In this document: positions 18,001-21,000 of the stretch, in pieces
How positions within the stretch are numbered: position 1 is the first letter of the stretch
Layout: each line of letters begins with the position of its first letter
Assembly: GCF_048403405.1 (NCBI RefSeq)
Contig: NZ_CP183129.1
Strand: one strand, 5' to 3'
From: Escherichia coli
GTDB lineage: Bacteria; Pseudomonadota; Gammaproteobacteria; Enterobacterales; Enterobacteriaceae
DNA length: 64,000 bases
Program-made: the position numbers

Positions 18001-21000
18001 AATCACCCCTGAAGAAGTAGCCGCAGCAGATCTGGTGATTGTGGCGGCAGATATTGAAGTGGATCTGGCGAAATTTGCTGGTAAACCGATGTATCGCACC
18101 TCTACCGGTCTGGCGCTGAAGAAAACCGCGCAGGAACTGGATAAAGCGGTTGCTGAAGCAACGCCGTATGAACCGGCGGGCAAAACTCAAACAGCGACCA
18201 CTGAAGGTAAGAAAGAGAGTGCAGGCGCTTACCGTCACTTGCTGACGGGCGTCTCTTACATGCTGCCGATGGTCGTTGCAGGTGGTCTGTGTATCGCGCT
18301 TTCTTTTGCTTTTGGTATCGAAGCGTTTAAAGAGCCGGGTACGTTGGCTGCGGCGCTGATGCAGATTGGTGGTGGTTCAGCCTTTGCGTTGATGGTGCCG
18401 GTACTGGCAGGTTATATTGCCTTTTCCATTGCCGATCGTCCGGGTCTCACGCCGGGTCTGATTGGCGGTATGCTGGCGGTCAGCACCGGTTCTGGCTTCA
18501 TTGGCGGTATTATTGCGGGCTTCCTGGCTGGTTACATTGCGAAGTTAATCAGTACGCAATTGAAACTGCCACAGAGTATGGAGGCGCTGAAACCGATTCT
18601 GATCATTCCGCTAATTTCCAGTCTGGTGGTCGGTCTGGCGATGATCTACCTGATCGGTAAACCGGTTGCTGGCATTCTCGAAGGGTTGACTCACTGGCTG
18701 CAGACCATGGGGACTGCGAATGCGGTTCTGCTGGGGGCGATCCTCGGTGGCATGATGTGTACTGACATGGGCGGTCCGGTAAACAAAGCAGCGTACGCGT
18801 TCGGTGTGGGTCTGCTGAGTACTCAAACCTATGGCCCGATGGCGGCGATTATGGCGGCAGGTATGGTGCCACCGCTGGCAATGGGCCTGGCAACAATGGT
18901 GGCGCGTCGTAAATTCGACAAAGCGCAGCAGGAAGGTGGCAAAGCCGCTCTGGTATTGGGACTGTGCTTCATTTCGGAAGGTGCAATTCCGTTTGCTGCC
19001 CGTGATCCGATGCGAGTGCTGCCGTGCTGTATCGTGGGTGGGGCGCTGACTGGCGCAATCTCAATGGCGATTGGTGCGAAACTGATGGCACCGCACGGTG
19101 GTCTGTTTGTTCTGCTGATCCCTGGCGCGATTACGCCGGTATTGGGTTACCTGGTAGCCATTATTGCCGGTACGCTGGTGGCGGGTCTGGCCTATGCCTT
19201 CCTGAAACGTCCGGAAGTGGACGCAGTAGCGAAAGCAGCGTAATAAAAGGTGTGTTACAGGGCAGAAATTTCCTGCCCTGTAACATTTGATGCGCGCAAA
19301 GAGAATGACCGGTTTGTGAATGTAATTTTATGAATTTAAATGGTTTTATCTTTTAGTGGAAACCTGAAACTTTCATCAAACACTAAGGTTATTTCCTCAA
19401 GGGCAGATTAATTTCTGCCCTTTTTTAGTGTTCCTGTTCTGTGCATCCCGTCACAAATTCCCCCTTTTTATAATTCAGGTATTTAATCGCGTTTTGTGAG
19501 CCTGCTCAAATCTGCCCATTTTGCCTCTCTGGCGGTAATTTACTTTACGTAAAACATGCATACTATGAGCACATGTTTAAATATGAACACATGTTTAAAC
19601 CGTCTTTGCAGTATCAATATTCTTGTGGATTGACAGGGTTGGTAATTTTTTACCAGAGGACGTGCTATGCGCGAAAAGGATTATGTCGTAATTATAGGTT
19701 CGGCGAATATTGATGTCGCCGGATATTCACATGAATCATTAAATTATGCGGATTCAAATCCAGGTAAAATAAAATTTACGCCTGGTGGAGTAGGGCGCAA
19801 TATTGCACAAAACCTGGCGTTGCTGGGGAATAAAGCCTGGCTACTGAGCGCAGTAGGCAGTGATTTTTATGGTCAATCGTTGCTAACGCAAACCAATCAA
19901 TCTGGTGTTTATGTCGATAAATGCCTGATTGTGCCGGGAGAAAATACGTCGAGCTATTTATCATTACTCGATAATACCGGTGAAATGCTGGTTGCTATAA
20001 ATGACATGAATATTAGCAACGCTATTACAGCTGAATATCTCGCACAGCACGGTGAATTTATTCAGAGGGCAAAGGTCATTGTCGCGGACTGTAATATCAG
20101 TGAAGAGGCACTGGCATGGATTCTGGATAATGCCGCCAACGTACCCGTATTTGTCGATCCTGTTTCCGCGTGGAAATGTGTCAAAGTGCGCGACCGTCTA
20201 AATCAAATCCACACTCTCAAGCCAAACCGCCTTGAAGCGGAAACCCTGAGTGGGATTGCTTTGTCAGGGCGTGAAGATGTGGCAAAAGTTGCTGCCTGGT
20301 TCCATCAACATGGCCTGAACCGACTGGTATTGAGCATGGGCGGCGACGGCGTTTATTACAGTGATATCAGCGGTGAAAGTGGTTGGTCTGTGCCGATCAA
20401 AACCAATGTCATTAATGTTACCGGAGCGGGCGATGCCATGATGGCTGGACTTGCTTCGTGTTGGGTAGACGGAATGCCGTTTGCCGAATCTGTTCGTTTC
20501 GCACAGGGATGTTCGTCAATGGCGCTCTCCTGTGAATACACCAATAACCCCGATTTATCGATTGCCAACGTTATATCGTTAGTGGAGAACGCAGAATGTC
20601 TGAATTAAAAATTTCCCCTGAATTATTACAAATTTCCCCGGAAGTGCAGGACGCTTTAAAAAACAAAAAACCGGTTGTGGCGCTGGAATCGACCATTATT
20701 TCTCACGGGATGCCGTTCCCACAAAATGCCCAGACCGCAATTGAAGTTGAAGAAACTATTCGTAAACAGGGCGCTGTACCTGCCACTATCGCCATTATTG
20801 GCGGCGTGATGAAAGTGGGTTTAAGCAAAGAAGAAATTGAATTGCTGGGTCGTGAAGGGCATAACGTGACCAAAGTTAGTCGTCGCGATTTACCTTTTGT
20901 TGTTGCCGCCGGAAAAAATGGCGCAACTACCGTTGCTTCAACGATGATTATTGCGGCGCTTGCCGGAATTAAAGTATTTGCCACCGGGGGAATTGGTGGT

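What the first reader, a model, noticed from the sequence alone, without database searches (positions are those of the whole stretch)
19548..19604. Tandem 18-bp direct repeat with internal ACATGT palindromes upstream of psuK
The sequence atgagcacatgtttaaat (19565-19582) is followed directly by atgaacacatgtttaaac (19583-19600), 16 of 18 identical, and preceded by a related aaacatgca motif. Each unit contains the palindromes acatgt and tttaaa. It sits about 70-120 nt upstream of the psuK ATG and after the fruBKA terminator, the right place for an operator or activator site of the pseudouridine catabolic operon, whose regulation I do not know to be characterised.
Basis: seen in the sequence. Interest (0 to 1): 0.35.

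Follow-up and report, generated by a model that had tools for sequence, protein, structure and literature searches.

The report
Operator pair of pseudouridine operon promoter
The 18-bp tandem repeat is two adjacent palindromic protein-binding boxes just after the psuK promoter, most likely the operator through which the uncharacterised protein YeiI (a DNA-binding domain fused to a pseudouridine-kinase-like domain) controls pseudouridine breakdown in E. coli.

Summary
The repeat is real (19565-19600; 16/18, or 17/18 one base earlier) and far beyond chance. Comparison with other bacteria shows the conserved feature is not the repeat. It is two 12-bp palindromic boxes, RAACA-YR-TGTTY (19567-19578 and 19585-19596), separated by a variable 6-bp spacer.

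The boxes start one base after a conserved promoter: -35 TTTACT at 19539-44 and -10 TACTAT at 19561-66. The recurrent adaptive "psuK/fruA" SNP from mouse-gut and long-term stationary-phase evolution maps to 19541. It changes this -35 to TTGACT.

The same two-box layout precedes pseudouridine operons in Citrobacter, Buttiauxella, Yersinia, Serratia, Pasteurella, Shewanella, Aliivibrio and three metagenomic loci. In every case a winged-helix + PfkB-kinase protein is encoded in or beside the operon. Three operons without such a protein lack the boxes.

In E. coli that protein is YeiI. It keeps the pseudouridine-binding residues and the helix-turn-helix, but has altered catalytic motifs.

Best reading: a YeiI operator that represses psuKGT until pseudouridine is present, with a CRP-like site upstream. 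The operator status is well supported. The YeiI assignment and the inducer are inferences, with no binding data. This is a new regulon prediction of a classical kind, of moderate interest.

The parts
19495..19510 (.). CRP-like site TGTGA-gcctgc-TCAAA, centred about -71.5 from the inferred transcription start
   Evidence: TTGTGA, TCA and ATCT are invariant in the 9-sequence, 3-genus alignment. The distance to the -35 hexamer is a constant 28 nt. Assigning it to CRP rests on the textbook consensus TGTGA-N6-TCACA and is an inference.
19539..19544 (+). -35 hexamer TTTACT of the psuK promoter; 19541 is the site of the recurrent adaptive T>G change (giving TTGACT)
   Evidence: The hexamer is conserved in all Enterobacteriaceae loci, Yersinia and Serratia. 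SNP 2257444 A>C in MG1655 version 2 (PMC7518454, PMC9509342, PMC7858067) maps here with an offset of 1978, fixed by four srlR mutations. The promoter scan reports TTGACT-16-TACTAT only in a strain carrying the SNP.
19561..19566 (+). -10 hexamer TACTAT, 16-nt spacer from the -35; transcription start inferred at about 19572-19574
   Evidence: Conserved as TACTAT, TATCAT or TATTAT across genera. The transcription start itself has not been measured.
19567..19578 (.). Operator box O1, GAGCA-CA-TGTTT (12-bp palindrome type RAACA-YR-TGTTY), about -7 to +5
   Evidence: Same position and motif in every orthologous promoter. Invariant in 4,211 of 4,212 E. coli genomes that carry this haplotype.
19579..19584 (.). 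6-bp spacer AAATAT between the boxes; constant length, variable sequence
   Evidence: The spacer is GATAGT, AAAAAC, GAATAT, GATATT, GATGAT, AAATCC or AAATCT in other lineages, and 7 bp in Shewanella, Aliivibrio and Burkholderiaceae.
19585..19596 (.). Operator box O2, GAACA-CA-TGTTT, about +12 to +23
   Evidence: One laboratory mutant (UC4316) has lost exactly one 18-bp unit.
19565..19600 (.). The 18-bp tandem repeat as reported
19640..19660 (+). 5'UTR hairpin TGGTAA-tttt-TTACCA directly followed by the Shine-Dalgarno GAGGA (19656-19660)
   Evidence: Predicted in the minimum-free-energy fold. There is a compensatory change to TGGCAA/TTGCCA in Citrobacter, Buttiauxella, E. albertii and the ST131-type E. 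coli haplotype. This element is separate from the repeat.
19667..22878 (+). Regulated operon: psuK (19667-20608), psuG (20596-21534), psuT (21628-22878)
   Evidence: ORFs. NCBIfam pseudouridine kinase equivalog, E 7e-215. RefSeq annotation.
26121..27209 (-). yeiI, the candidate cognate regulator: winged-helix HTH_24 (aa 1-48) fused to a PfkB domain 38% identical to PsuK
   Evidence: Pfam HTH_24 at 1.2e-10 and PfkB at 2e-67. yeiI is adjacent to psuT in all non-E. coli Enterobacteriaceae loci. Orthologous HTH-PfkB genes head the psu operons of other orders. The link to the boxes is by co-occurrence only.

Best explanation
The repeat is a double operator. Each 18-bp unit carries one 12-bp palindromic box, RAACA-YR-TGTTY. 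The two boxes (19567-19578 and 19585-19596, 18 bp centre to centre) begin one base after the -10 hexamer of a weak sigma-70 promoter (TTTACT-16-TACTAT). They therefore cover the transcription start and the first ~25 transcribed bases.

Proposed mechanism:
- A dimer of the winged-helix/PfkB protein YeiI binds each box and blocks RNA polymerase.
- YeiI is a paralogue of pseudouridine kinase. It keeps the pseudouridine-contacting residues but has altered catalytic motifs.
- Binding of pseudouridine (or its 5'-phosphate) to the kinase-like domain releases YeiI, and psuKGT is transcribed. An upstream CRP-like site near -71.5 would help activation.

In most other bacteria the HTH is still fused to the operon's own kinase, which would make that protein both enzyme and autorepressor. 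In the Escherichia/Citrobacter lineage the two roles appear to be split between PsuK (enzyme, no HTH) and YeiI (sensor/regulator).

Status of each step:
- Shown here: sequence, position, conservation, and co-occurrence with HTH-PfkB genes.
- Inferred: the transcription start, YeiI binding, the direction of control (repression), the inducer, and the CRP role.

The confidence of 0.6 is for the full statement including YeiI and repression. For the narrower claim that the boxes are a protein-binding operator of the psuK promoter I would give about 0.85.
For: 1. Promoter. The -35 and -10 hexamers are conserved across genera. The single recurrent adaptive SNP of gut and stationary-phase evolution converts the -35 to TTGACT. 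The promoter scan passes its threshold only with that SNP.

2. Boxes. Both boxes keep their sequence frame and position while the spacer and flanks diverge. This holds in E. albertii, Citrobacter, Buttiauxella and a second deep E. coli haplotype, where the direct repeat drops to 11/18.

3. Species-level constraint. The -35-to-O2 segment is identical in 3,275 of 4,212 E. coli genomes, and the common variant lies outside the boxes. An upstream intergenic segment of the same length is identical in only 241 of 3,427.

4. Blind test. Seven YeiI homologues (43-51% identity) were fetched without reference to the motif. All are the first gene of an HTH-PfkB, psuG, (transporter) operon. Six of the seven have two boxes, with a period of 18-19 bp, within 60 nt of the start codon. 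The pair pattern occurs about 1.8 times by chance in the 284 kb scanned.

5. Converse test. Three metagenomic exact matches lie directly upstream of HTH-PfkB/psuG genes. One has a textbook TTGACA-17-TATACT promoter immediately before the boxes.

6. Negative controls. Three psuK(no HTH)-psuG-psuT operons with no HTH-PfkB gene within 6 kb have no boxes.

7. The protein. YeiI's HTH recognition helix is nearly identical to that of the fused kinases. YeiI keeps S30, N143 and K170, the pseudouridine-binding residues per PMC9061257. It has GADD in place of GAGD, T in place of the N of the NxxE motif, and lacks the SMGxxG glycines. A psuK mutant cannot use pseudouridine, so YeiI is not a redundant kinase (PMC12506659).

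8. Autonomous units. Single perfect boxes lie about 250 bp upstream in Yersinia and Serratia. Intra-box spacing is invariant while inter-box spacing is 6-7 bp. Both indicate that the 12-bp palindrome is the unit recognised.
Against: - There are no binding, footprint, expression or transcription-start data for this promoter. YeiI is linked to the boxes only by co-occurrence.
- Xenorhabdus has the HTH-kinase operon but not this motif.
- No box lies near yeiI itself in E. coli.
- The pattern alone is not specific: 77 of the 80 listed metagenomic matches are elsewhere.
- Experimental evolution always hits the -35 and never yeiI or the boxes, whereas other repressors (frlR, srlR, dgoR, glpR) are hit by many loss-of-function alleles. 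This fits 'already induced in the gut', but it is not what a simple tight repressor predicts.
- Half-site centres only 7 bp apart and an 18-bp box spacing are unusual geometry.
- The boxes can also form an RNA or DNA hairpin.
Confidence: 0.6

Rival explanations
1. The boxes are an operator, but for a different protein. Candidates are YeiL (the CRP/FNR-family regulator encoded next to psuT in E. coli), a DeoR/GlpR-type repressor, or an unidentified factor. Under this reading YeiI's HTH has another target.
For: From memory, the 14-bp form TGAACAnnTGTTTA resembles the PrfA box TTAACAnnTGTTAA of a CRP-family factor. Read in the other register, TGTTYRAW-WNYGAACA resembles GlpR and DeoR operators; C. 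werkmanii has ATGTTCGATATTGAACAT. yeiL lies 70 bp beyond psuT. No box is found at yeiI.
Against: yeiL is adjacent only in Escherichia. It is absent from the E. albertii, Citrobacter and Buttiauxella loci, which keep the boxes, and from the Yersinia, Pasteurella, Shewanella and Aliivibrio loci. The only DNA-binding protein that travels with the boxes across orders is the HTH-PfkB protein, and the boxes are absent where it is absent. The inter-box spacer varies between 6 and 7 bp, which argues against a dimer spanning TGTTT-N6-GAACA.
Confidence: 0.13
2. The repeat acts in the RNA. It would form a hairpin at the very 5' end of the psuK mRNA that stabilises the transcript or is a target of small RNAs such as RprA.
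For: GUUUAAAUAUG-AACA-CAUGUUUAAAC folds at -9 kcal/mol with z = -3.0, and it is the first helix in the fold of the whole 5'UTR. Box1/box2 hairpins are also predicted in Citrobacter, Buttiauxella, E. albertii and Yersinia. psuK is listed as an RprA target in RIL-seq and TRIC-seq data.
Against: Any pair of similar palindromes can fold, so the prediction is not independent evidence. What is conserved is the sequence of the half-sites (AACA/TGTT) from E. coli to Shewanella, not pairing through compensatory changes. Pasteurella keeps the boxes but has no hairpin (-3 kcal/mol, z = -0.7). With the inferred start, half of box 1 is not transcribed. Distal single boxes ~250 bp upstream in Yersinia and Serratia cannot be part of such a hairpin. 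Rfam finds nothing.
Confidence: 0.08
3. YeiI (or the fused kinase) binds the boxes but acts as an activator or dual regulator rather than a repressor.
For: The promoter is intrinsically weak at 8 of 12 consensus positions. Evolution improves the -35 rather than inactivating yeiI.
Against: The boxes lie from about -7 to +23, overlapping the start and the initial transcribed region. They sit between the -10 and the start codon in every lineage, including a locus with a consensus promoter that needs no activator (L040). Activator sites normally lie upstream of or overlapping the -35.
Confidence: 0.07
4. The repeat is an incidental local duplication with no function.
For: The near-perfect direct repeat is confined to one Escherichia haplotype. 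A laboratory strain has lost one unit without reported consequence.
Against: Both boxes are conserved across genera and orders at a fixed position relative to the promoter. They are the least polymorphic part of the intergenic region in 4,212 genomes.
Confidence: 0.02

Closest known systems
BirA / bio operator, NadR, and archaeal RbkR (enzyme fused to a DNA-binding domain that represses its own pathway)
   Same: A winged-helix or HTH domain is fused to an enzyme domain that binds the pathway metabolite. The operator overlaps the promoter of the pathway operon. In Yersinia, Pasteurella, Shewanella and others, the HTH-kinase is the operon's only kinase, so a bifunctional enzyme/repressor is the natural reading.
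   Different: The enzyme domain is a PfkB (ribokinase-family) nucleoside kinase, and no such fusion has a solved structure or described function in the resources searched. The pathway is catabolic, so the ligand should induce rather than co-repress. In E. coli the regulator and the enzyme are separate paralogues.
ROK-family repressors NagC and Mlc (sugar-kinase fold turned repressor, with an N-terminal winged helix)
   Same: A kinase-like sensor domain with an N-terminal winged helix and palindromic operators at catabolic promoters. YeiI shows changes in catalytic motifs that suggest a pseudokinase sensor.
   Different: The kinase superfamily is different (PfkB, not ROK/ASKHA). The operator is different too: ROK sites are ~23-bp AT-rich palindromes (from memory).
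GlpR and DeoR operators of E. coli (TGTTCG / TGTTAG half-sites in 16-20 bp palindromes, often in tandem)
   Same: TGTT/AACA half-sites, tandem arrangement over a catabolic promoter, and a nucleoside or sugar-phosphate theme. Read in the other register, the central 18 bp resemble the GlpR consensus (consensus from memory).
   Different: The E. coli site matches only about 6 of 9 positions per GlpR half-site. The conserved unit here is AACA-NN-TGTT with a fixed 2-bp centre, and the segment that would be the GlpR core is the variable spacer. YeiI has no DeoR C-terminal domain.
PrfA box (TTAACAnnTGTTAA) and other CRP/FNR-family 14-bp palindromes
   Same: The same AACA-NN-TGTT core and 14-bp extent.
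   Different: The CRP/FNR-family candidate here, YeiL, does not co-occur with the boxes outside Escherichia. The resemblance is recalled from memory and was not tested.
FadR/GntR-type short palindromes (TGGT-N3-ACCA)
   Same: A winged-helix dimer reads two half-sites whose centres are only ~7 bp apart. This is a precedent for the tight geometry of the 12-bp box.
   Different: Different family, different half-site and different effector domain.

Membership tests
Repressor operator overlapping a sigma-70 promoter | Lies within the RNA-polymerase footprint (about -55 to +20) of the regulated promoter | tested here: met
   The boxes begin 1 nt after the -10 hexamer. The promoter was identified by conservation and by the adaptive -35 SNP. 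The transcription start itself is inferred, not measured.
Repressor operator overlapping a sigma-70 promoter | Dyad symmetry, or repeats matching an oligomeric DNA-binding protein | tested here: met
   Two 12-bp palindromes, AACA-NN-TGTT.
Repressor operator overlapping a sigma-70 promoter | Conserved in orthologous promoters while the flanks diverge | tested here: met
Repressor operator overlapping a sigma-70 promoter | Bound by a protein whose removal derepresses the operon | not testable with these tools
   This needs EMSA or footprinting and a yeiI deletion.
Enzyme-fused autoregulator (BirA / NadR / RbkR type) | A DNA-binding domain and a metabolite-binding enzyme domain in one polypeptide | tested here: met
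   HTH_24 at 1.2e-10 plus PfkB at 2e-67 in YeiI. The same architecture is found in more than 80 homologues.
Enzyme-fused autoregulator (BirA / NadR / RbkR type) | The gene lies in or beside the operon it would regulate, and its operator precedes that operon | tested here: met
   It is the first gene of the psu operon in 7 of 7 distant loci, with boxes in 6 of 7. yeiI is beside psuT in Enterobacteriaceae.
Enzyme-fused autoregulator (BirA / NadR / RbkR type) | Ligand-binding residues are retained in the regulator | tested here: met
   S30, N143 and K170 are invariant, YeiI included. Their role is described in PMC9061257.
Enzyme-fused autoregulator (BirA / NadR / RbkR type) | The same polypeptide is catalytically active (truly bifunctional) | tested here: inconclusive
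   The fused kinases keep GAGD and NxxE. E. coli YeiI has GADD and TxxE, so it is probably not a kinase.
GlpR/DeoR-family operator | A palindrome of about 20 bp with conserved TGTTCG (GlpR) or TGTTAGAA (DeoR) half-sites, and a DeoR-family regulator | tested here: not met
   The would-be core is the variable spacer. No DeoR_C domain is present in YeiI. The consensus was recalled from memory.
CRP/FNR-family site (YeiL) | The regulator co-occurs with the site | tested here: not met
   yeiL is found only in the Escherichia loci, but the boxes persist without it.
LexA SOS box | CTGT-N8-ACAG near the promoter | tested here: not met
   No such sequence occurs in 19480-19667. This was considered because PsuG and PsuK are recA-dependent under ciprofloxacin.
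cis-regulatory RNA (riboswitch or leader) | A match to a known RNA family, or a structure kept by compensatory changes | tested here: not met
   No Rfam hit at E <= 1. The half-site sequence is conserved rather than covarying, and there is no hairpin in Pasteurella.
Variable-number tandem repeat / contingency locus | Copy number varies among strains | tested here: not met
   Two copies in all but about 5 of 4,212 genomes. The one checked (UC4316) is a laboratory mutant with one copy.

The most novel reading that the evidence does not exclude
Winged-helix/PfkB proteins would form an uncharacterised family of pseudouridine-responsive transcription factors that recognise AAACA-NN-TGTTT boxes.

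In most Gammaproteobacteria, and in some Betaproteobacteria and Gram-positive-like organisms, one polypeptide would be both the pseudouridine kinase and the autorepressor of its operon.

In the Escherichia/Citrobacter/Salmonella lineage a duplication would have split the two jobs. PsuK lost the HTH and stayed an enzyme. YeiI kept the HTH and the pseudouridine pocket but degraded its catalytic motifs, becoming a pseudokinase sensor.

This would give the E. coli y-gene yeiI a function. [quoted passage not shown]
Probability: 0.55. Interest if true: 0.62.

Novelty: new member of a known kind. Interest (0 to 1): 0.5.

Why it matters
- **Unknown regulation.** In the literature I could search, regulation of the E. 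coli pseudouridine operon is undescribed, and YeiI is repeatedly listed as uncharacterised.
- **Adaptive relevance.** The psuK/fruA intergenic region is one of the most repeatable targets of adaptation in the mouse gut and in long-term stationary phase. This analysis places that SNP in the -35 hexamer, next to a conserved double operator. The adaptation can therefore be read as raising the ceiling of an inducible promoter.
- **A testable function for a y-gene.** The work gives yeiI a concrete function and defines a candidate DNA motif for a widespread HTH-kinase fusion. It also offers a clean example of an enzyme/regulator split after duplication.
- **Practical use.** Strains engineered for pseudouridine production delete or manipulate psuK and psuG. 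Knowing the operator and the sensor could also provide a pseudouridine biosensor.

Tried and rejected
- **Rfam.** A scan of 19000-19900 at E <= 1 found nothing.
- **Leader peptide.** The small ORF starting in the repeat (19565-19633, MSTCLNMNTCLNRLCSINILVD) was rejected. It has no Shine-Dalgarno. Its ATG overlaps the -10 and so lies upstream of the inferred start. The start codon is missing in Buttiauxella and C. werkmanii.
- **Other operator types.** LexA box, ARG boxes (wrong symmetry; 18-bp spacing where 21 bp is expected), PhoP direct repeats (TGTTTA spaced 18 bp, not 11) and NrdR boxes were compared by eye against recalled consensus sequences and do not fit.
- **YeiL as regulator.** Rejected because yeiL is absent from most loci that keep the boxes.
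- **The LysR gene upstream of psuK in Citrobacter.** It belongs to a lineage-specific insertion (racemase and DcuA-like transporter) that is absent from Buttiauxella and E. coli.
- **Further regulon members in the window.** The only other hits are a single box inside yejB (3947) and a weak pair inside yeiE (29513). Both are in coding sequence and at the chance level.
- **Metagenome-wide pattern scan.** It was largely uninformative: 77 of 80 listed matches are unrelated, as expected from the size of the collection. Three useful loci came out of it.
- **Measured transcription start or CRP binding at psuK.** None found in the papers available.
- **A second promoter-like match in K-12** (TTTAAA-16-TATATT, with its -35 on box 2). 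It falls below the scan's threshold in this window, so I do not favour it.
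Full report
**1. The observation**

The window is E. coli chromosome. On the + strand it carries fruK (16597-17535), fruA (17552-19243), a 423-bp intergenic region, psuK (19667-20608), psuG and psuT. These are followed by yeiL (-), rihB, nupX and yeiI (26121-27209, -).

The reported repeat is exactly where stated. ATGAGCACATGTTTAAAT (19565-19582) is followed by ATGAACACATGTTTAAAC (19583-19600). Tandem Repeats Finder gives period 18, two copies, 94% matches. No other tandem duplication of comparable period and identity exists in the 64-kb window, and the chance expectation for this one is about 1e-3. 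The segment is also a 26-bp inverted repeat.

Rfam finds nothing in the intergenic region. The fruA terminator lies at 19253-19285, and a second terminator-like hairpin with the same stem lies at 19399-19422.

**2. Where the promoter is**

The psuK/fruA intergenic region is a known hotspot of adaptive evolution. The same substitution, A>C at MG1655 (version 2) position 2257444, rises repeatedly in E. coli colonising mice. An A>C in "psuKp" appears in three long-term stationary-phase populations. Its authors report that it changes psuK expression and growth.

I fixed the coordinate offset between genome versions at 1978, using four srlR mutations from the same table whose amino-acid effects are stated. 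Only that offset reproduces all four. The SNP is therefore window 19541, a T>G on the psuK sense strand, 126 nt before the ATG. It converts TTTACT (19539-19544) into TTGACT.

Sixteen bases downstream lies TACTAT (19561-19566). The consensus scan finds no promoter on this strand in the window (8 of 12 matches). It does report TTGACT-16-TACTAT in a laboratory strain that carries the SNP.

Both hexamers are conserved in other Escherichia species, Citrobacter and Buttiauxella. So is a CRP-like TGTGA-N6-TCAnA site at a fixed 28 nt upstream of the -35, centred near -71.5.

I take this as the psuK promoter, with a start near 19572-19574. The start itself is inferred.

**3. What the repeat really is**

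Eleven orthologous loci were fetched through PsuK. In all of them the sequence immediately after the -10 consists of two 12-bp palindromic boxes separated by six bases:
- Citrobacter: GAACACGTGTTT-gatagt-GAACATGTGCTC
- Buttiauxella: AAACACATGTTT-gaatat-GAACATGTGCTC
- E. albertii: GAACATGTGTTT-aaatcc-GAACATATGTTC
- E. coli: GAGCACATGTTT-aaatat-GAACACATGTTT

The frame RAACA-YR-TGTTY and the spacer length are conserved. The spacer sequence, the TTTAAA and the exact position of ACATGT are not.

E. coli itself has a second, deeply divergent haplotype of the whole psuK-yeiI region. It is found in ST131-type strains, where yeiI is only about 81% identical. There the promoter reads GAACATGTGTTT-aaatct-GAACACATGCTC. 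Both boxes are kept, but the 18-bp units match at only 11 of 18 positions.

So the eye-catching direct repeat is a by-product of two near-consensus boxes in one haplotype.

Within that haplotype, the segment from the -35 to box 2 is identical in 3,275 of 4,212 genomes. The common variant (19602) lies outside the boxes. An equal-length upstream segment is identical in only 241 of 3,427 genomes.

The boxes span about -7 to +23, which is the position of a repressor operator.

**4. Who binds**

yeiL (CRP/FNR family) is adjacent only in Escherichia. A LysR gene upstream of psuK in Citrobacter belongs to a lineage-specific insertion.

The one neighbour present in every Enterobacteriaceae locus is yeiI, convergent with psuT. 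In E. coli it is separated from psuT by the yeiL-rihB-nupX insertion. YeiI is a winged-helix domain (HTH_24, 1.2e-10) fused to a PfkB kinase domain 38% identical to PsuK. The papers I could read list it as uncharacterised or as a hypothetical transcription factor.

I then fetched seven YeiI homologues of 43-51% identity, chosen without regard to the motif. They come from Yersinia, Serratia, Xenorhabdus, Pasteurella, Shewanella, Aliivibrio and a Burkholderiaceae genome. In all seven the HTH-PfkB gene is the first gene of an operon with psuG, usually followed by a nucleoside transporter.

In six of the seven, two AAACA-NN-TGTTT-type boxes with an 18- or 19-bp period lie within 60 nt of the true start codon. 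In Yersinia and Serratia they lie directly after a TTTACT-17-TAAAAC promoter, and a further single perfect box sits about 250 bp upstream.

Across the 284 kb scanned, the pair pattern hits every psu promoter except Xenorhabdus. It also gives two hits inside yeiE coding sequence. Shuffled sequence gives about 1.8.

The converse test was a metagenome-wide scan for the pattern. It mostly returns unrelated DNA, as its information content predicts. Three of the 80 listed matches, however, sit immediately upstream of HTH-PfkB/psuG genes only 31-45% identical to the references. One of these has a consensus TTGACA-17-TATACT promoter, then the two boxes, then the ribosome-binding site.

As negative controls I used three psuK-psuG-psuT operons whose kinase lacks the HTH and which have no HTH-PfkB gene within 6 kb. 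They come from Aeromonas, a Bartonella-like genome and a Pasteurellaceae MAG. None has boxes.

**5. Enzyme versus sensor**

E. coli PsuK is closer to the fused kinases of Yersinia and Pasteurella (57-60% identity) than to YeiI (38%).

All proteins in the alignment keep S30, N143 and K170. These are the residues shown to hold pseudouridine in E. coli PsuK. The fused kinases and PsuK also keep the ribokinase-family catalytic motifs, NxxE and GAGD.

The YeiI group has T in place of the N, GADD in place of GAGD, and has lost the SMGxxG glycines. Its recognition helix is almost unchanged: SRSRVAAHIMDL against SRSGVAGHIMNL.

A psuK mutant cannot use pseudouridine, so YeiI is not a redundant kinase.

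The simplest history is as follows. An ancestral bifunctional kinase/autorepressor was duplicated in the Escherichia/Citrobacter lineage. One copy lost the HTH and became the enzyme PsuK. The other copy, YeiI, became a ligand-sensing regulator.

**6. Proposed mechanism and its status**

- Shown: the repeat, its position relative to a conserved promoter, conservation of the two boxes, their co-occurrence with HTH-PfkB genes, and the motif changes in YeiI.
- Inferred: the transcription start; that YeiI dimers occupy O1 and O2 and exclude RNA polymerase; that pseudouridine or its phosphate releases them; that CRP activates from about -71.5.

I put the operator reading at about 0.85, and the full statement including YeiI and repression at about 0.6.

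Several points count against it:
- There are no binding or expression data.
- Xenorhabdus lacks the motif.
- Experimental evolution never hits yeiI or the boxes.
- The geometry is unusual: half-site centres 7 bp apart and boxes 18 bp apart.

The evolutionary pattern fits an operon that is already induced in the gut and limited by promoter strength. The -35-up allele is nearly absent from natural genomes. It occurs in 5 of 4,046, of which at least four are laboratory strains.

**7. Rivals**

- RNA hairpin. One is predicted at the 5' end of the mRNA (-9 kcal/mol). Any two similar palindromes will fold, though. The half-site sequence is conserved rather than covarying. Pasteurella keeps the boxes without a hairpin. 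Half of O1 would not be transcribed.
- Another regulator (YeiL, or a GlpR/DeoR-like protein). This fits some recalled consensus resemblances but fails the co-occurrence test.
- An activator role for YeiI. This is disfavoured by the downstream position of the boxes.
- An accident of duplication. This is excluded by conservation.

**8. Comparison with known systems**

Functionally this is a classical operator at a catabolic promoter. The presumed regulator belongs to the class of enzyme-derived or enzyme-fused regulators: BirA, NadR, archaeal RbkR, and the ROK proteins NagC and Mlc.

It is not a member of the DeoR, CRP/FNR or LexA systems on the features tested. No HTH-PfkB protein has a solved structure. 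No paper in the searchable library combines "pseudouridine kinase" with "helix-turn-helix". I cannot exclude coverage in RegPrecise, RegulonDB high-throughput sets or subscription journals.

**9. Verdict**

The element is a new example of a familiar kind of control. Its added value is a specific, testable function for yeiI and a mechanistic context for a well-known adaptive SNP. Interest is moderate (0.5).

Noticed in passing
window 19253-19285 and 19399-19430: There are two terminator-like hairpins with nearly the same stem (GGGCAGA...TCTGCCC) about 140 nt apart after fruA. The second is followed by a T-run. The ~110 nt between them has no Rfam match. In the divergent E. coli haplotype, REP-like sequence occupies this interval (L145 3270-3400).
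   Followed up: partly
window 19640-19660: A hairpin, TGGTAA-tttt-TTACCA, abuts the psuK Shine-Dalgarno. It is kept through a compensatory change (TGGCAA/TTGCCA) in Citrobacter, Buttiauxella, E. albertii and the ST131-type E. coli haplotype. It may be a translational or stability element, and it is independent of the repeat.
   Followed up: partly
window 19541 (and hits H53-H57): The adaptive -35 allele TTGACT occurs in only 5 of 4,046 complete E. coli genomes: ER1821R, ER2683, S17-1, ST18 and fEC.1. It is essentially absent from natural isolates.
   Followed up: yes
L021 (E. coli UC4316, NZ_CM168047.1) aligned to window 19570-19587: This laboratory mutant of strain UC4224 lacks exactly one 18-bp repeat unit, leaving a single box. 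I did not check whether the parent has two units or whether expression changes.
   Followed up: partly
window 19667-27209; L145: The whole psuK-to-yeiI region exists as two deeply divergent haplotypes in E. coli. psuK matches by megablast in 4,217 of 5,426 genomes. yeiI is at least 95% identical in about 3,360 genomes and about 81% identical in about 2,060. The ST131-type haplotype has an E. albertii-like promoter and only a fragment of nupX.
   Followed up: partly
window 23658-23673: A near-perfect palindrome, TATGAGA-tt-TCTCATA, lies in the yeiL-rihB intergenic region. It has CRP-type 5-6-5 geometry (TATGA-N6-TCATA) and is a candidate YeiL or FNR site.
   Followed up: no
window 29513-29542 (inside yeiE), also L005 6902 and L145 12394: This is the only other place where the two-box pattern is met (GAACAGGCGATC-gaaatc-GAACAACTGTTT). 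It lies inside the yeiE coding sequence and is probably chance plus coding conservation.
   Followed up: partly
L020 4960-5000 (Xenorhabdus): This HTH-psuK operon lacks the box pair. Instead it has TCATGTTCAAACATGA, with the half-sites in the opposite order, 25 nt before the start codon.
   Followed up: no
psuK/psuG expression (literature): PsuG and PsuK are among the proteins most reduced in recA mutants under ciprofloxacin in four of six E. coli strains (PMC11039860). psuK mRNA is listed as an RprA target (bioRxiv 2025.09.11.675593). No LexA box is present. Induction by pseudouridine released during lysis is one possible explanation.
   Followed up: no
L007 2336-5700 (Citrobacter): A 3.7-kb insertion lies between fruA and psuK. 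It carries a DcuA-like transporter, an aspartate/glutamate-racemase-like gene and a LysR-family regulator. It is absent from E. coli and Buttiauxella.
   Followed up: partly
L084 7110-8235 (metagenome): A Gram-positive-like locus has a kinase without HTH plus psuG on one strand and a separate HTH-PfkB gene divergent from it, with the two boxes in between. This looks like an independent case of the enzyme/regulator split seen in E. coli.
   Followed up: partly
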